Source: Octopus vulgaris (lineage: Eukaryota). Taken from it: DNA of 64,000 bases. Every line of letters starts with the position of its first letter. Within the stretch, counting starts at the first letter, position 1. The stretch spans positions 33,790,001 through 33,854,000 of the forward strand of contig OX597837.1 of the NCBI GenBank assembly GCA_951406725.2, given 5' to 3'. Of the stretch, positions 1,885-63,649 are shown one piece after another. Position numbers and translations under genes: made by a program. Under the pieces are notes generated by a model. The model saw only the letters and a list, made by a program, of their open reading frames with translations. It made no database searches and was not told the origin of the DNA.

Positions 1885-1920
1885 GTTTCTGAAGAAGAGC
1901 ATGTGCTCGAAATGTTAAAC
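1885..1920 (+). ncRNA. Minimal type-I hammerhead ribozyme motif (family H1)
   Basis: guuu CUGAAGA a gagc-augu-gcuc GAAA ug UU aaac. Confidence 0.6.
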
Positions 1921-4546: not shown

Positions 4547-5001
4547 GTTGCACATTCATATCTATGTGTTTGTGTATGCCAAACTACATCCCCACTCTTG
4601 GCACTATTTTGTTAGTGAACAGTACAACTGTGTGTAAAGTATATAATGTATTACTACGCTGAATGTCGTCGTCCGTGTATCATGTAAAGCAATAAACACG
4701 TAAACAATAACAATGGTTTTCATTTGGTTGTCCATCCCATTAGAACCCAAACTACACACATAACATGTACACTTATTAGCCATGAGTGCTTTCCACTAAA
4801 AAGTTCCTGGCTTTGGGTAAAAGAAGATACAGGAGAATCAATTAATTATGATTTTATTCAATAAGGTAGACAGACAGTTTGTCGACAGGCAACTTAGACA
4901 GGACAATTGACCGAGTGGACAATTTGCTGGTTCTATCAATAATATAGGCGTACCTTTGTGTAGAAGCTTTCCTCCTCCTTGTTCCGTTTTGATGAACTCC
5001 A

Positions 5002-5359
5002 TGAAGCTCCGGCATCTGGCGACGGACTTGGTAAACACCCACAAAGTTATCAACCACCTCACCAACAACAACACTGAACACCTTTTTGATCTCCATGTGT
5101 CTAACACACGTGGACATGCCTACAAAGTCAGAAAACAACACAGCTCCCATGACTTTCGGAAACATTTTTTCACGCTCAGAGTTGCTGAAGCATGGAACAA
5201 ACTGCCTGCGTCAGTTGTTGACTGCCATGACACTGCATCCTTTAAGGCCCTCATGCTTTCCGAAATCCGCCGAAACTACACCTGATTATATATACACTTT
5301 AGATGAGTTGTAGTGCACCTGAGCACTGTACACAATTATTATTATTATTATTATTATTA
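5002..5359 (+). mobile_element. 5'-truncated CR1-clade LINE (ORF2 C-terminus plus (ATT)n tail)
   Basis: ...NTRGHAYKVRKQ...RKHFFTLRVAEAWNKLP; nearly identical to 13665-14013. Confidence 0.88.
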
Positions 5360-12906: not shown

Positions 12907-13445
12907 TATCTCATAGCTTTCAGATTTCAGTGATGTGATTGCTTATTTTTAGAACAACATTGTAGGGTAGGTGTGAGAAGCTAGATGTGGCCAGTTTAAA
13001 TCTGGCCCTTAACATTAAGATTATTTTATAAAATGTAATGCTTATTTATTCACATCGTTTTGAATTAATTGTGCATTATCTTGTAGCTTTAGGATTTCAA
13101 TGATGTGATGGTTTATTTTTAGAATGACATTGTAGAGTGGGTGTGAGAGACCCAATCTGGTCAGTTTGAACATAAAATGAGTGGGATATTCTGGCTGGAT
13201 GTGGCCAGTTTGAATACGAAAGGGTTAAGGCAGATTTTCTGTGACAAGGAAGCATTTTCCCTTGGTCTGTCGGTCTTGACTGAATATAGGAAATAATTGA
13301 CACTACCTGTATAACAGTGGCACTCATTTACAACTATCATGCAATGACAAGACAAAGAAACACACGTTCATACAGATACATACACATAGAAACATGATGG
13401 GCTTCTTTCAGTTTCCATCTACCAAATCCACTCACAAATCCACTC

Positions 13446-14013
13446 CAGCAAGACTTTTGTTAGCCGCTCTCCAGCCATCTATTTAAAACTGTATACAGCT
13501 ATGGTACGACCACACTTGGAATTCGCATCATCAGTTTGGAACCCCTATCTTGCTCAGAACATTGACCTCCTGGAATCTGTCCAGAGACGTGCAACCAAAC
13601 GCATACCCTCCATCAGACACCTACCATATTCCGAGCGCCTTGTTTCCCTGGGCATGGATTCACTGAAGCTCCGGCGTCTGGCGACGGACTTGGTAAACAC
13701 CCACAAAGTTATCAACCACCTCACCAACAACAACACTGAACACCTTTTTGATCTCCATGTGTCTAACACACGTGGACATGCCTACAAAGTCAGAAAACAA
13801 CACAGCTCCCATGACTTTCGGAAACATTTCTTCACGCTCAGAGTTGCTGAAGCATGGAACAAACTGCCTGCGTCAGTTGTTGACTGCCATGACACTGCAT
13901 CCTTTAAGGCCCTCATGCTTTCCGAAATCCGCCGAAACTACACCTGATTATATATACACTTTAGATGAGTTGTAGTGCACCTGAGCACTTTACACAATTA
14001 TTATTATTATTAT
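13446..14013 (+). mobile_element. 5'-truncated CR1-clade LINE with open ORF2 C-terminus
   Basis: MVRPHLEFASSVWNPY...LESVQRRATK...YSERL...LRR...TRGH...FFTLRV..WNKLP, then a short 3'UTR and (ATT)n. Confidence 0.9.
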
Positions 14014-18596: not shown

Positions 18597-18631
18597 GTTT
18601 CTGACGAAGAGCTCCACTCGAAACGTTAAAC
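18597..18631 (+). ncRNA. Minimal type-I hammerhead ribozyme motif (family H1)
   Basis: guuu CUGACGA a gag-cucca-cuc GAAA cg UU aaac; palindromic AACGUU stem III; flanks homologous to 1850-1990. Confidence 0.68.
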
Positions 18632-31953: not shown

Positions 31954-33554
31954 TCAGCTCTTACTGAAGGTGCGCTGTAAACTTGGCTTTTGTTTTTTAT
32001 TCACACGAACTAACATAGAAGGTTTGTACATTCCTAATTTGAGACCATTGACAGCACAGTGCCGGTTGAGATAAACGGAAGGATCAGCAGCAGATTGCTG
32101 GGCTAGAGTCTTGGGGTTGACAGTACGACTAGAAAATTTGCTGTCTGTTGTGAAGCTGTTGAGGGATTCTAACGAGTTGGAATTAGTTGAGTAATTATTG
32201 CTTGGAAGTTGGCATTCGCTCTTTGTTGACCGTCGCCGCATGCTACGGGTATATTCCATCATGTTCTGATGACACCACGAGTCTCCGTTGATTCGAGCCA
32301 CACCAAATTTGATACCAATTTTCTCAGTCGGTGAGAGCGTGTCAGGAGAACAGCACGAGTGCGAACGAAAGCGTTCTTTGGAACGGGGAGGATTCGGAAC
32401 AGTTTCCCAAGATAACTCTGATGGCGACAACGATAAAGGTGTCTTTTCGTCGTCGCCTGACACTTTGAAATTTTCGCTATTTGTTTCAAAGAAGCTGGCC
32501 AAACTGCTCACCTCGTCAGAGGCCTCGGACAGTGCTGAAAAGTCCAGATTGTTACAGCTATCGAGTGAAGGGCTTCGAAGTAACTGGCTCACCTGTTCCT
32601 CTAGACTGTTTTTTGCGTCAGAATCTTCCAGGTGAGAAACAGGTGTTACCACAAGTGAAGCATCTTCAAGATGCTCAGGAACATTGTCAAAGGCGATTAA
32701 AGAATGTTGATTATGATCATTGTCTTCGTTGCCATTAGCAACGTGACAAGAGGCAGATGTGATGGTTGGCCCAGGATCCACAGTTTGAGGAGGACCGTTA
32801 GAAATAGATGCTGGATCAGTTGTTGGGGTTTCTAAATTGGTAATGTTCTGAGTGGGGTCTGGATCTTCAGAATTATTCGCAGAGATCTCAGATATGGAAT
32901 GTAGTAATTCACTTACAGAATGAGGGTCTGTGAGATTAAGGTTCTCTTGACTGTCTTTTATGGAAATATCTGCCGTGTGTGCAAGGTTTTCAACACTGGT
33001 AGCCTGTGGATTCTCTTGTGAAGCCGTTACAGAATCTGCAAGGGAGCTATTCCCAGCATCAGTGTCTTCAACGGCAGTTGTGTCGTCCTTTGAGGACGTC
33101 GTATCAGATGCCAAGTCCACAACAGCTGTGGCGACACTGGCACTTGTGCCACCACCACTGGTGTCGTCTTGGGGAAGACTATCTTGGGAGCTACTTGAAA
33201 GTTTATGATTGTCAGCAGACTGCAATCGCTGCAGTGCATCGGGGAGACGGGTGTTTTCAGAGTTCGATCTTCTTGAGCAATTTGTTTTCTGAGTTTCAGT
33301 TGGTTGGCAACTTTGGTTTGGATCAAAATGGCTATCGAAGCTCTTTGAACGGAATTTACCTGAAAGGCTGGCAGCTTTCCCTGGAACACTGCCTGAAGGA
33401 ACTTGACAAGCAATACGAGGCCCTGCAGTTATGAATCTATTTTTGTGTTTTTTCAGAGCGTTTCGTCCAATAAATAAATGGTTCATAGCTTTCGGCGACT
33501 CAATTGTGGGCGTGATGAAATCTGTGTGTGACTTCTGTTGGTAAGTATTGGCAG
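31954..33554 (-). CDS. TBC1D30: TBC1D30 large terminal exon (Ser/Thr/Asp-rich disordered tail)
   Basis: ttccag|CT continues phase 1 into the 568-aa ORF; contains AMNHLFIG near the start and LKLGMYKP...QRTFSKS* at the end, reminiscent of TBC1D30 C-terminal motifs. Confidence 0.85.
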
Positions 33555-34179
33555 CTGGAAGACAAGAAGAAAAGGAGGAGATGTATGTGTCTGTGTGTTT
33601 GTCTGCATTATATATATACGCATATATATAAAGAAAACGAGATGACAAAGCAATAAACAATTATAACCTTCATTAGCTTATGTCCGTTTCTGCTGAGATA
33701 CAGTGGACTCATCGTTGAGTTCCTGATTAACAAATTATAGCTTCTTCAGAGCTGTGTGTGTTTGTGTGTGTGTGTGCATGTAACAATAATAAAAGAAGTT
33801 AAAATACAGGTTCGTACGTTTGAAAATTCACAACAAAACATTACCATCTGTACAGAGTAAGATGCAGGAAGGTGGTAAGTGGAGTTCAAAGGAAAGGTTG
33901 TGAAAAGTGGCAGAAGACGAAAGAGTGTGAGAGAGGAGGAAGTTTAGTCAGGCAGGATGAAACTGAGGTGACCACATGAGTGTCTCCTCGTCCGGCCTGT
34001 CCGCAGAAGAGCAAATGTAAAAGTTTTCTTCCAATTTCCCTGAGCATCCAATGTTTGTGCTGGATATTATTAGGTCATGATGATGTCCATTATTTAATGT
34101 ATACTTATCTCTCACTGGACAGAATGCTATTTTTGTTGATCTTATTTTAGTGGAATAGTAGATTATATATGTATATATA

Positions 34180-46520: not shown

Positions 46521-47046
46521 CTGAAAAAATTAATTTTAGCAGAAAAAGATAAGGAAAAAGAAAAATGAGTTGATTGTTGGATAGAAACAGTTTGGTTGAT
46601 GTTCCCTCCAGCCTTCATCAGGCGTCTTGGGGAAATTTCAAACCTGGGTTCTCGTTCCTGTGGTATTTTTCAATGTAATTATTATTCAGATCACTGCCTG
46701 GAATTGAACTTGGAATCTTTACTGAAGGAGGTTAAGAGTGTTGCTGTTGTTGGTGGTATTCATCATCATCATCGTTTAATGTCCACTCTCCATGCTAGCA
46801 TGGGTTGGACGGTTCAACTGGGGTCTGGGAAGCCAGAAGGCTGTGCCAGGCTCCAGTCTTATCTGGCAATGTTTCTACAGCTGGATGCCCTTCCTAACGC
46901 CAACCACTCCGTGAGTGTAGTGGGTGCTTTTTACGTGCCACCTGCACAGGTGCCAGGCGAGGCTGGCAACGGCCACGGTCAGATTGGTGCATTTTATGTG
47001 CCACCGGCACGGAAGCCAGTCGAGGCGGCACTGGTCATTAAATTAA

Positions 47047-50096: not shown

Positions 50097-50550
50097 AATA
50101 CATACCTATATATACATATATATACATGGACACACACATATGTATACATACACACATATTTATGTAACGTATGTACACACACATACATATACATAAAATA
50201 TACAAGACAATTATACCATAAACATATAGACACACATAATACTCCTTTAAATGCCTGAACCCACAAATATGCCTTATCAGGCAGAATTCCATCTGACTCT
50301 ACCCCAGAAAGAAACAAAAGCAGGTGGCCATGTGGTTTAGTGCTTGCAGCCTCTCTAATTGGCAGCAGAAATGTGATGACATATTACAAGTGTATACACA
50401 CACACGCATGGGATGTAATACATATACACACACCAACAGAAAGGTAGATGCAGACAGGTGTACTTAAGCAAGAGTCCACACACGTGCAACATTGATGTCA
50501 AATATCTAAACAATTAACACACGTGTGTGTGTGTGATGCGTTTATGTATT

Positions 50551-51150
50551 GAGAGGCGGTTGGATGGAACCTACAATCGCCTCCTTATGAGAGCTCAAAA
50601 TCTCTCGTGGAGGCGTCATCCAACCAAAATGCAAATATATGGGAAACTACCACCTGTGTCATCTCTTGTGAAAGGTAGAAGAGTCCAGTTTGCTGGACAT
50701 TGTTGTAGAGCTGAAAAAGAGGTAATTTCTACTCTCCTCCTCTGGAAGCCATCTACTCGCAATACCAGAGGGCGCACACTCTTCGAGAGGCGGTTGGATG
50801 GAACCTACACTCGCCTCCTTATGAGAGCTCAAAACCTCTCGTGGAAGCGCCATCCAACCAAAATGCAAATATATGGGAAACTACCACCTGTGTCATCTCT
50901 TGTGAAAGGTAGAAGAGTCCAGTTTGCTGGACATTGTTTTAGAGCTGAAAAAGAGGTAATTTCTACTCTCCTCCTCTGGAAGCCATCTACTCGCAATGCC
51001 AGAGGGCGCACACTCTCCTACCCTGATGTAATCTCCAGGGATACAGGCATCCAGCAACAGGACCTCTGTAATGCCATGATGGACCGTGAAGTCTGGCGTA
51101 GCATGGTAAATTCCATTGTCTCGACCACGGTCGAACAATGATGGTGATGA
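50551..51150 (+). mobile_element. RTE/RTE-X-like LINE 3' fragment with a 234-bp in-frame tandem duplication
   Basis: RRVQFAGHC.R...LLLWKP...RGR repeated twice, then ...AMMDREVWR...* and a (TGA)n tail. Confidence 0.8.
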
Positions 51151-54989: not shown

Positions 54990-55759
54990 ATTATTATTAT
55001 TATTATTATTATTAATATTATTATTAATATTATTATTAATATTGTTATTAATATTGTTATTAATATTATTATTAATATTATTATAATAATAATAATAATA
55101 ATAATAATTCTTTCAACTTTGGGCACAAGGCCTAAAATTCTGGGTTCGGTTGTAAGTCGATTACATCGACTCCCCAGTATTCGACTGGTACTTATTTTAT
55201 CGACTATAAAAAGGCGAAAGGAATTTGGACACAGAACGTAAATAGCCGGACGATACGCCGTTAAGTATTTAATCCGACATGCTAAGTAACAATAATAATT
55301 TACTATAACAAACAACGATCCGACGAGAGGAGCTCCGTGCACTGTTGCTCGCTAAGCTAGAAATAGCAACCAAATTGCCCGCAAATCATCTCACCGTACC
55401 GTCTTGAAAAAGGAAGGATGGATCACATACCGTAGTCCCAGAGCAATGATATACAGGACTGGATGGTCATTTGTGGAGTTGGGTGGAAGAAAGGACTAAG
55501 ATGGTCAACACAGAAAAATAATTGTTCCTAGATCCGATCGGTAAGGACAGAACCGAAGCACAACAGTAACAACATTAATATTATTGTTATCGATGAATAG
55601 GTAAAAACGAGAGATCGAAGACTGCCTGTTCCTAGTGTTTCTCAACCATTCTTTACCTATAAACCCCTTTAATTCCTGTTCTACTCAAGTGGACCCTCAA
55701 AGCCATTCATTCGATGTTTAAAAAATCCTATCATATTTTCATAAATATTACAAGGAATT

Positions 55760-55932
55760 CAGTTCTATATTTAAGAGATGAGGAATTATGTACATTATTT
55801 TACATTTCACGGATATTTGTCCTCATCTTGTTTGTTGTTAACTCGACGTTTCGGCTGATACACCCTCCAGCCTTCTTTAGGTGTCTTGGGGAAGTTTCGA
55901 ACCTGGGTTCCCATTCTTAAGATATTTTTCGA

Positions 55933-55969
<37 letters not shown>

Positions 55970-56188
55970 CTCACTGCCTGAATTCGAACTCGGAATCTTG
56001 AATGAAGGAGGTTAAGGCACTGACCTGAATAATAATAACAACAACAACATCGAAAAATACCTTAGGAATGAGAACCCAGGTTTTGAAATTTCCCCCCAAG
56101 ACACCTGATGAAAGCTGGAGGGTGTATGAGCCGAAACGTTGTGTTAACAACAAACAAGATAAGGACAAATATCCGTCAAATGTAAATA
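55760..56188. mobile_element. Inverted pair of hammerhead-bearing retroelement units (family H5)
   Basis: Arms about 55793-55978 and 56016-56191; 13-bp direct repeat ATTACAAGGAATT at 55747 and 56189; ribozyme motifs at 55840-55885(-) and 56100-56145(+). Confidence 0.72.
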
Positions 56189-57317
56189 ATTACAAGGAAT
56201 TGTATGCAAAAATTGTTAAAATATGTTGTGTATTGTATAAATATAAGCAGCGTATCACACATAAATTTTAACAACAAAACCTTCTAAGGACCCCAGTTGA
56301 AAACCACTGCCCTATTTTGTAAAACATCCAAGAGTGACTTCGACAGAATAATATCAGTAATACTCTGGGGTCGTTTCAGTCGCCTACATCTCGTCCCATA
56401 CAAGGTCAGACAAATCAAAAGAAATTCATAACGTACGCGTATATTTCTCTTTTTGCAAAATTCTTGATGTGAACTTTAGTGTTGAGACATATTTTGTTTC
56501 TCGGGAGGGTCGACCTAATTGATTGATGAACCGAACTAGTAATTGAACAATCGATTAGTTGGTTGGTTCAGTAGTTAACCGACAGCTAACCACTACATAC
56601 ATGTGTTAGAATTGGTCCTCTACATCTGAGAAGCCCCCAACCAACTGCCAAAGTGCCGATACCTTAAGAAGGCACTGACCAACAGGGAATCCTTTGTACT
56701 AGCAGCGAGGGGAAACCCCCTTCACTCATATTCAATTTTGAAACGGGCCTCTCCTGACGTCCCTGAAAGGAAGCACCCCAGGTGAGAAAGAGAAAAAAGA
56801 CGAAAAACCGGTTTAAACCTAGGTACAAGTACCTTAAACCTAAACACAAGACAGTCACTTATGTTGTATATTTACGAATTCCTGACAATTTGATGTTTAT
56901 AATATTTTTCATGCGCTGAGAAAATTCAAACCTTTCTCAATTCACACCTCCGTTACAGGAAACAGAAACATTAGATGCTGCAGCCCTAATAAGGAACCCT
57001 TAAAAAAGGGTTAGATACTCGGGATGGTAATATTTGTAATATCTTTGATCAGAGCCTGCTCACTCTTTCCGCAAATGTGAGGCCTTGTGTCGATGTCAGA
57101 GATGAATAATTGCCAATATTATTACATAAACACGAAGACTCAACGTTTAGATAGAACGTGACAAAGGAAGACGATGATGCGCTGTTGTTCCTGATTCTTT
57201 TCTTCTTTGCAGCAGATGGCATATTAATAATAATAAATTATATCACCACAAAGTGAACATCATATAATTTACAATACAACAACAACACAAATAAGAATGA
57301 ATGGAACGAGAACTCAC

Positions 57318-62429: not shown

Positions 62430-63649
62430 CACACACACGACAGAAGTAAATAGACACCCCATAAAACATCATTTTCTGTTTATTCTAACTTGTAAAGATT
62501 TATATTTCTTATTAATTGGCACTTTTATGTCTCTTGCTCTATATGTGACTGTTTAATCATGTCATGTATAAAAGAAGCCTTGGAACTGTCTGAATTTCAA
62601 AGAGTCTGTATTTTGGGTCATTCTGAAGGTGGATATAGTCAGTGTAAAATCGCAGAAAACCTTGGGATCCTGCTTTCTACAGTTAATAGAGTTATTGTGC
62701 AATTCACCAGAGAGGGGAAGGAATCCACATCACCTTGTCCAGATCAATCAGGGGCCCCTAACAGGACCCTTCTCTTTGCAAAGAGAAGTGTGGAGGATAA
62801 TCCTCATTGCAAGACCTCTGACATAGCAGAGCAAGTTGCTGTCAGTCCCAGAACAGCTGCCAGATATCTCCACAAACTTGGCTATTATGGCAGAGCAGCA
62901 AGAAAGAAGCCACTTCTTCAACCAGCCAATATCAAGCGGAGAAAATACTGGACCAGTGAGATGGTGAGGAGGCTACTAACATTTTGGGACAGTCATATTC
63001 TCTTGATGAGTCGAGTTTTGCTGTATTTCCTGACAGTGGTCAAGTGTGGGTCTGGAGACTGTGATCAAGAAACTGATGTCAAAAGGTTGCAGTCAACAAT
63101 GAAACATGGCAGCTATTCTGTGATGGTCTGGGGAACAATTTGGAGCAATGGTCAATCAGAGTTGGTGGAGTGTGAGGGAAAGATAAACTCAGATGAATAC
63201 ATATCCATGTTGCAAAAAGGACTCCTTCCAATCTTCTCCAGTGGTGAAATGATTAAAGAAAACTCTTCATACAGCTAAAAAGACAACATTGGTCGGAAGA
63301 GAATGGCATTAGAAAGCTTCCCTGGCCAAGTCAATCACTAGATATGAACCCTATTGAACACCTCTGGGGCATAATGGACAGGATATTTCATAAAATGAAC
63401 CAGAAAACATCCTCAAATCCAGATCTTTTGAGATTACTGAATGAAACAGGGCATGAGATTTGTTAAGAGAATATTCGTCATCTGATCAGTAGCATGCCTA
63501 ATAGGGTCCTTGCATTGAAAAATGCAAAGGGTATGTCTACTAAATATATGATATTCACATTATGATAATTAACAAATAATTTGAATGTATATTATTTAAA
63601 TAGTTTTTAACAATTATAAGGGTGTCTATTTACTTCTGTCATGTCTGTG
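62430..63649 (+). mobile_element. Full-length but inactivated Tc1 (DD34E-type) transposon
   Basis: TA TSD; TIR CACA(C/G)ACA(C/T)GACAGAAGTAAATAGACACCC; HTH ORF from 62559, ARKKP, frameshifted DES, VMVWG, WPSQSLDMNPIEHLW, ..KGMSTKY. Confidence 0.9.

What the first reader, a model, noticed from the sequence alone, without database searches (positions are those of the whole stretch)
55747..56201. Hammerhead ribozyme retroelement with tRNA B-box-like motifs, inserted as a TSD-flanked inverted pair
Seen: two arms of about 180 bp in inverted orientation, bounded by a 13-bp direct repeat (ATTACAAGGAATT). The three copies (55840-, 56100+, 46584-) give a textbook type-I hammerhead consensus: gacac CUGAUGA a GGCUG-loop-CAGCC GAAA CG UH gugu, with a palindromic ACGU stem III. 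Upstream on the ribozyme strand are B-box-like motifs (GAGTTCGAATTC, GGTTCGAAA) and an (AAT)n spacer. Each copy has a defect: 56100 has A.C at the stem II closing pair and 55840 has G5A. Known: minimal dimer-acting hammerheads occur in Penelope-like element pseudo-LTRs (which often form inverted arrangements), in non-LTR retrozymes, and in the Pol III SINE-like Sm-alpha repeat of schistosomes. Inference: this may be an undescribed cephalopod Pol III self-cleaving RNA or retrozyme family.
Basis: partly seen in the sequence, partly recalled or inferred. Interest (0 to 1): 0.8.

Follow-up and report, generated by a model that had tools for sequence, protein, structure and literature searches.

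The report
Penelope retrotransposon with tRNA-type front end
This is a broken, back-to-back pair of end pieces of an abundant Penelope-type jumping gene, whose ribozyme and insertion pattern are already known, but whose end repeat begins with a tRNA-derived segment that marks where most copies start and likely acts as an RNA polymerase III promoter, a feature not found described for this class.

Summary
The inverted arms, the 13-bp target duplication and the hammerhead-like motifs are real. They are not a free-standing retrozyme. They are 5'-truncated pseudo-LTR pieces of a Penelope/Poseidon-type element: a 2,655-nt unit with one 835-codon RT + GIY-YIG frame and about 25,000 ribozyme-bearing arms in this genome.

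The minimal hammerhead, the inverted pair and the one-long/one-short 3' ends are published PLE features. All three ribozyme copies in the window are defective.

The unusual part is a tRNA-derived head with A and B boxes, 29 nt after the ORF stop and 118 nt before the start codon. Of 65 sampled arms reaching it, 51 end at its first base (±20 nt), so an RNA 5' end lies there, likely a Pol III start. The whole unit lacks TTTT (weak support). A B-box signature failed to replicate and RNA-seq was uninformative. Some copy ends pile up just behind the predicted cut, hinting at cleavage.

This scan noted the family earlier on other DNA as a Penelope-carried SINE. Here the head is shown to belong to the autonomous element itself.

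The parts
55747..55759 (.). left target-site duplication (13 bp)
55760..56000 (-). left arm: pseudo-LTR positions about +42 to +274 (+1 = first base of the tRNA-like head); long 3' end including the PLE tail; 94% identical to the family model over the body
55840..55885 (-). minimal type I hammerhead, copy A; G5A and a stem I mismatch, predicted inactive
55935..55966 (-). (AAT)n spacer of the left arm
55967..56000 (-). 3' half of the tRNA-derived head with the B-box remnant at 55980-55991; A box lost by 5' truncation
56001..56014 (.). junction filler between the arms; the same junction occurs only at the 46.7-kb copy (2 matches genome-wide)
56015..56188 (+). right arm: pseudo-LTR positions about +63 to +241; short 3' end without tail; 96% identical to the model over the body; contains the element's start codon at 56068-56070
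56100..56145 (+). minimal type I hammerhead, copy B; core intact, G10.1A and a G.G in stem II; predicted cut after 56140
56189..56201 (.). right target-site duplication (13 bp)
46591..46719 (-). third, more decayed arm of the same family (+43 to +183, 82% to the model); ribozyme broken

Best explanation
[quoted passage not shown] Shown: the unit order is ORF stop, 29 nt, tRNA-like head (A box +8, B box +53), (AAT)n, ATG at +119, hammerhead at +148 to +193 inside the first codons, then 3' ends at +237-248 or +269-274. Inferred from the Anolis PAc work: the element's RT/GIY-YIG protein nicks both DNA strands about 10-13 bp apart and starts reverse transcription at those two internal sites, one per strand. 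This would give two outward-facing tails and a target duplication. Inferred: cDNA started in the first 275 nt of an RNA runs off its 5' end at +1 and yields the abundant SINE-like short copies. Whether those RNAs come from solo copies or from the front of the long mRNA is not resolved. The ribozyme is predicted to cut after +188 only as a dimer or with protein help, and a minority of templates likely were cut there. The copies at this locus lack the A box and carry broken ribozymes on opposite strands, so they would neither transcribe nor cleave on their own.
For: PLE identity. Upstream of the head, genomic copies continue into a GIY-YIG-type and RT frame. Pfam RVT_1 E 2.4e-10. 51 homologues, most of them 660-900-aa proteins with RVT_1; an Anolis protein at 35%. 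The majority model has one 835-codon frame, and real copies run from the pseudo-LTR into the ORF (111 exact junction matches). Insertion pattern. Head-to-head pairs occur in 50 of 89 loci, with an exact shared 10-15-mer at the two outer ends in 24 of those 50, and one long plus one short 3' end in 46 of 50, as in PMC11167929 and PMC8557442. RNA start. 51 of 65 arms reaching +20 end between +20 and -19: hazard 0.43 and 0.62 per 20 nt, against 0.01-0.11 elsewhere, 0.22 at the (AAT)n, and 0 in five bins from -40 to -139. The mode is at +1. In a second sample, 54 heads start there and 9 run into the ORF, of 87. Genome-wide exact 21-mers: ribozyme 7,194, head 3,681, just upstream of the head 988. 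No TTTT in 2,655 nt, whereas 40 other PLE frames show 224 runs against 205 expected. Cut site: 22 ends at +189 to +194 against 2 at +181 to +188.
Against: No direct transcription or cleavage data. A B-box C56T excess in ORF-linked heads (24 of 55 against 9 of 65, p 0.0004) did not replicate (11 of 56 against 7 of 55, p 0.44). The TTTT absence is weak: P 0.002-0.09 by null, GGGG is also absent (P 0.03-0.04), the test used a majority model, and 17 of 40 controls lack T5. Of ORF-bearing copies that reach the head, 3 continue upstream and 2 stop there, so the long RNA need not start at +1. The head can pair its two ends (p 0.35-0.7), so processing is not excluded. The cut-site peak is post hoc, overlaps a GTTAAC palindrome, and other peaks are as high. 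Stem II G10.1A occurs in 10% of 248 arms.
Confidence: 0.7

Rival explanations
1. The short unit is an independent non-autonomous SINE or retrozyme (tRNA head plus captured PLE end) that amplifies from its own short masters and borrows Penelope enzymes.
For: Most sampled arms are short: only 13 of 149 extend into the ORF. The unit from +1 to +274 has both boxes and no TTTT, so solo copies could be transcribed and copied again. Earlier scan notes read it so (unchecked notes, not support).
Against: The head sits in the ORF-bearing element itself. ORF-linked and head-starting arms have the same age (4.6% and 4.3% non-CpG divergence, p 0.53). Only one position differed in the pooled set (112 against 119 heads), and that difference did not hold in the replication set alone. 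The start codon and open frame are kept to the 3' end. No tandem arrays of the short unit in 89 loci.
Confidence: 0.12
2. The 5' end at +1 is made by processing of a longer Pol II transcript (RNase P-like cutting of the tRNA-like fold), by a Pol II start that coincides with an old SINE insertion, or by a reverse-transcriptase stop.
For: +1 is also the RNase P position (established knowledge). The ends of the head pair with probability 0.35-0.7. D. virilis Penelope uses an internal LINE-like promoter. A short palindrome spans -6 to +5, and 7 of 73 heads show fold-back.
Against: The D, anticodon and T arms are predicted unpaired (p at most 0.013; cloverleaf -2.4 against -14.3 kcal/mol), and ARAGORN finds no tRNA in the model, while the A and B boxes are intact. 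A 4-bp hairpin is unlikely to stop about 80% of cDNAs, and 56 of the 63 ends called are not fold-backs.
Confidence: 0.15
3. The family is an ordinary PLE; the tRNA-like stretch is a passenger with no role and the clustering of ends is a sampling artefact.
For: No RNA-level support; the B-box test did not replicate.
Against: The step at +1 appears in two samples chosen by different patterns and in whole-genome counts.
Confidence: 0.03

Closest known systems
Penelope/Poseidon EN+ PLEs, especially Anolis PAc (Frangieh et al. 2024, PMC11167929, parts 1-2 of 4 read) and D. virilis Penelope (PMC2377424, passages)
   Same: Single RT + C-terminal GIY-YIG frame of about 835 codons; pseudo-LTR; hammerhead at the ORF start with the cut downstream of the ATG; two 3' ends about 30 nt apart; inverted 5'-truncated partner; partial tandems.
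   Different: tRNA-derived A/B-box head and (AAT)n inside the pseudo-LTR; most copies end at the head's first base. D. virilis Penelope has a LINE-like internal promoter.
Minimal hammerheads of metazoan PLEs (Cervera and de la Pena 2014, PMC4209133, parts 1-2 of 4 read)
   Same: Type I, short stem I, unpaired base before stem II, G10.1-C11.1, palindromic ACGU in place of stem III; pairs on opposite strands 100-700 bp apart.
   Different: Stem II is 5 bp; otherwise a new member.
TRIMp3 elements Cassandra, Helenus, Ajax (Kojima 2024, PMC10886601, passages)
   Same: A small-RNA-derived Pol III promoter inside a terminal repeat, probably from a SINE insertion.
   Different: Those are non-autonomous LTR elements, and the paper argues that their autonomous partners must use Pol II and should not share the repeat. 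Here the head is in the autonomous, ORF-bearing PLE.
Schistosome Sm-alpha SINE-like hammerhead repeats (as reviewed in PMC6765202, passages)
   Same: Pol III-type promoter followed by a hammerhead.
   Different: Sm-alpha is non-coding, tandem, with a canonical ribozyme that cuts out units. Here the unit ends are set by PLE priming sites and the ribozyme is inside coding sequence.
Metazoan non-LTR retrozymes (PMC7229834, passages; bioRxiv 10.64898/2026.07.22.740005, part 1 of 5 and passages)
   Same: Type I hammerhead; relation to PLE pseudo-LTRs.
   Different: Retrozymes are head-to-tail tandem repeats giving circular RNAs. These copies are dispersed and head-to-head.

Membership tests
EN+ Penelope-like element, Penelope/Poseidon type | single ORF with PLE-type RT | tested here: met
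   835-codon frame in the majority model; RVT_1 in a real copy; homologues
EN+ Penelope-like element, Penelope/Poseidon type | C-terminal GIY-YIG endonuclease with CCHH motif | tested here: met
   aligned to homologues, one of which (P0043) hits Pfam GIY-YIG; our copies gave no Pfam GIY-YIG hit themselves
EN+ Penelope-like element, Penelope/Poseidon type | no Zn-finger linker between RT and EN (that linker marks Neptune/Nematis) | tested here: met
   no CX2-5CxxC in the linker, by eye (definition)
EN+ Penelope-like element, Penelope/Poseidon type | pseudo-LTR/partial tandem, inverted truncated partner, 30-40-nt tail at one end | tested here: met
EN+ Penelope-like element, Penelope/Poseidon type | phylogenetic placement with named clade references | not tested
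   no named reference set at hand; the nearest named hit is an Anolis protein at 35%
PLE minimal hammerhead | core CUGANGA/GAAA/UH, unpaired base before stem II, G10.1-C11.1, palindromic stem III | tested here: met
   model; core and ACGU intact in 68 of 248 arms, stems too in 49; all three window copies defective
PLE minimal hammerhead | self-cleavage as dimer or with protein | not testable with these tools
   only an indirect pile-up of ends at +189 to +194
SINE (SINEBase definition, PMC3531059) | tRNA-derived head with A and B boxes; copies begin at the head | tested here: met
SINE (SINEBase definition, PMC3531059) | transcribed by Pol III | not testable with these tools
   RNA-seq uninformative; B-box test inconclusive
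SINE (SINEBase definition, PMC3531059) | non-autonomous family dependent on a partner LINE | tested here: not met
   the unit is the pseudo-LTR of an ORF-bearing PLE of the same age and sequence
non-LTR retrozyme | head-to-tail tandem non-coding units | tested here: not met
   dispersed single or head-to-head arms in 89 loci
non-LTR retrozyme | circular RNA | not testable with these tools
   standard RNA-seq only

The most novel reading that the evidence does not exclude
An autonomous Penelope-like retrotransposon that has swapped its Pol II promoter for a captured tRNA-derived Pol III promoter. Its whole 2.65-kb protein-coding RNA is made by Pol III and kept free of TTTT terminators, internal priming in the first 275 nt spins off tens of thousands of SINE-like copies, and the hammerhead cuts a fraction of templates in vivo. 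The element would be LINE-like master and SINE in one.
Probability: 0.22. Interest if true: 0.8.

Novelty: new variant of a known kind. Interest (0 to 1): 0.5.

Why it matters
PLE promoters and the role of their ribozymes are poorly understood. This family gives a sharply mapped RNA start, two priming sites and a possible cut-site footprint from genomic copies alone. If Pol III makes the ORF-bearing RNA, it would contradict the published expectation that autonomous retroelements must use Pol II and raise the question of how an uncapped RNA is translated. If only the short RNAs are Pol III products, it still shows a direct route from an autonomous PLE to a SINE-like repeat. The locus itself is an ordinary dead insertion.

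Tried and rejected
Rfam gave no hammerhead hit at gathering or E-value thresholds; the miRNA hits only reflect the long hairpin. ARAGORN gave no tRNA in the window or the model; at a relaxed score some loci gave tRNA-Ser-like calls on the head.

Pfam on five short fragments gave nothing relevant. The first mapping reference was mis-built and discarded, and the first full model had deletions and a broken frame and was rebuilt.

The B-box C56T signature did not replicate. The apparent differences at positions 12 and 64 came from query-biased loci L001-L060 and vanished when these were dropped.

RNA: no RNA holder was listed on record. Three 2026 RNA-seq runs gave near-equal read orientations, depth following the DNA copy profile and no start or end sites, so they are uninformative. 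A short Pol III RNA would be lost in such libraries.

A protein search for other PLE families in the same genome returned only this family (30 of 30 loci), so the controls came from metagenome contigs.

Whether the long RNA starts at +1 stayed open: too few copies reach the head.

Covariation among copies is not a valid test, since they decay neutrally from near-identical masters. Eight of 79 relatives' loci show the same core with different paired stems.

Lunse et al. 2016 was not held. Repbase, Dfam and the 1994 octopus SINE paper were not available, so the family or its head may be catalogued there. No supplements were read.

Full report
Observation. The locus is as described. A 13-bp direct repeat (55747-55759, 56189-56201) is unique in the window and encloses two arms in head-to-head orientation. 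A third arm lies at 46591-46719. Each arm has a type I hammerhead layout and each is defective: G5A and a stem I mismatch in the left arm, G10.1A and a G.G in the right, and loss of G12 and the ACGU palindrome at 46.6 kb. Rfam has no matching hammerhead model. The host is taken to be an octopus.

What it is part of. The arm is a high-copy repeat: 1,942 exact matches of a 43-mer, 7,194 of a ribozyme 21-mer, and roughly 25,600 ribozyme-bearing arms, estimated from 39 of 139 sampled arms carrying that 21-mer. Walking upstream through genomic copies led without a break into a GIY-YIG-type domain and a reverse transcriptase (Pfam RVT_1 E 2.4e-10). Walking further led back into the same arm sequence, which runs on into the N-terminal coding region. 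A majority model gives a 2,655-nt unit with one 835-codon frame from +119 to +2,626, numbering from the first base of the tRNA-like head. Most homologues are 660-900-aa RT proteins; an Anolis protein is 35% identical, and the closest (P0001, 55%) keeps the N-terminal residues that encode the ribozyme core. The linker lacks the Neptune/Nematis zinc finger. This is a Penelope/Poseidon-type PLE, and the finding is its pseudo-LTR. Copies are about 4.4% diverged at non-CpG sites. Contigs from runs of three further coded organisms cover the head, ribozyme and ORF regions.

Known features. Cervera and de la Pena describe minimal PLE hammerheads with an unpaired base before stem II, a palindromic stem III, dimer action, low activity, and pairs on opposite strands. 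Craig et al. describe inverted 5'-truncated partners and a 30-40-bp tail at one end. Frangieh et al. show for Anolis PAc two internal priming sites that explain the tail, a ribozyme at the ORF start, protein-assisted cleavage, and no need of cleavage for insertion in vitro. All are matched here. Of 89 loci sampled by a tail pattern, 50 have head-to-head pairs, and 24 of these 50 share an exact 10-15-mer at their outer ends. In 46 of 50 pairs one arm ends long (+269 to +274) and the other short (+237 to +248) (one of two rows for L103 was dropped). The window's pair ends at +274 and +241.

The unusual feature. A tRNA-derived head begins 29 nt after the stop codon, with an A box at +8 and a B box at +53. 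It no longer folds as a cloverleaf. Of 149 arms in the 89 loci, 65 reach +20; 51 of these end between +20 and -19, 1 ends at -25 and 13 continue into the ORF. The hazard per 20 nt is 0.43 and 0.62 there, against 0.01-0.11 downstream (0.22 at the microsatellite) and 0 from -40 to -139. At base resolution the mode is +1: 13 of 63 ends called, one of which (L177) is really an ORF-linked copy with an insertion, and 7 of 73 heads are fold-backs. A second sample chosen by a head pattern gave 54 heads starting at the head, 24 truncated within it and 9 ORF-linked, of 87. Whole-genome counts fall from 3,681 in the head to 988 about 65 nt upstream. So most templates that reach the head had a 5' end at its first base, 7 nt before the A box, where SINE-type Pol III transcripts start (established knowledge). 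No A+B box pair was found in up to 500 nt after 40 control PLE frames (several had little downstream DNA), nor before the ribozyme in the 8 of 79 control loci that had one.

Tests that were weak or failed. The unit has no TTTT in 2,655 nt. Expected counts were 2.6-4.7 and P 0.002-0.09 across five nulls, while 40 control frames had 224 runs against 205 expected and only 1 had none. However, GGGG is absent too (P 0.03-0.04), the test used a majority model, and 17 of 40 controls lack T5. A B-box C56T excess in ORF-linked heads (24 of 55 against 9 of 65) did not replicate in new loci (11 of 56 against 7 of 55). Of ORF-bearing copies that reach the head, 2 stop there and 3 continue into an upstream ORF end, so it is open whether the long RNA starts at +1. 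RNA-seq reads were uninformative. ORF-linked and head-starting arms share age and sequence, which argues against a separate SINE lineage but does not exclude re-copying of solo units.

The ribozyme. The predicted cut is after +188, 70 nt downstream of the A of the start codon. Among 281 arms with internal 5' ends (pooled loci, partly query-biased), 22 begin at +189 to +194 and 2 at +181 to +188. The window +187 to +193 holds 20 of 78 ends between +160 and +220 (p 4e-4, post hoc). The one-sided shape fits templates cut there. But the site overlaps a short palindrome, and peaks of similar height exist at +227 (probably the tail with its 9-nt tandem repeat) and at +105 to +139. The most variable non-CpG core position is N7, the free one (A in 13%), yet G10.1A reaches 10%. 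Cleavage is suggested, not shown, and is not what defines the copies' ends.

Mechanism. Most likely an old tRNA-derived SINE head with an (AAT)n tail entered the pseudo-LTR and now supplies a Pol III start (inferred). The element's protein primes at two internal sites about 125 and 155 nt into the ORF, one on each nicked strand, giving tail-out pairs within a target duplication (inferred from PAc). Priming within the first 275 nt of an RNA yields short copies that end at +1; priming in a downstream pseudo-LTR yields ORF-bearing copies. This locus lost the A box in both arms, and its ribozymes are broken and on opposite strands, so it is a fossil that could at most form a double-stranded hairpin in a passing transcript.

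Novelty. Eight full-text searches listed no paper on a PLE with a tRNA-derived Pol III head, judged from listings and the passages named under Closest known systems. An octopus repeat annotation lists Penelope families without mention of ribozymes (passages). Kojima describes such heads only in non-autonomous LTR elements and expects autonomous partners to use Pol II. Repbase, Dfam and supplements were not seen. This scan had already noted what appears to be this family on other DNA, mostly as a SINE carried by Penelope machinery. My data place the head inside the autonomous element. Verdict: new variant of a known kind, interest 0.5.

Noticed in passing
window 56001-56014 and 46720-46736: The left arm here and the 46.6-kb arm break at the same head position and share the same junction filler, found only at these two places genome-wide, although they differ much in decay; local duplication or conversion is unexplained.
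   Followed up: partly
window 1889-1912 and 18601-18623 (+): Two further minimal-hammerhead-like motifs of a different sequence, probably stubs of another PLE family.
   Followed up: no
L032 and L038 (3' of the head); L351-L404 sample: Some copies stop in or just after the head or (AAT)n with no ribozyme body; 11 of 87 heads had no body within the stretch examined, some because of long repeats.
   Followed up: partly
P0001: The closest relative (55%) keeps the ribozyme-coding N-terminal residues; its DNA could not be fetched to look for the head.
   Followed up: partly
L482-L551: Many copies run past the usual 3' ends to +283 and beyond, into the ORF, suggesting occasional priming further downstream.
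   Followed up: no
window 31954-33660 (-): 568-codon open frame, probably a large host exon.
   Followed up: no
window 4911-5285, 13390-13947, 50518-51141, 62496-63278: Remnants resembling CR1-type and RTE-type LINE ends and a Tc1-like transposase (names recalled, not tested).
   Followed up: no
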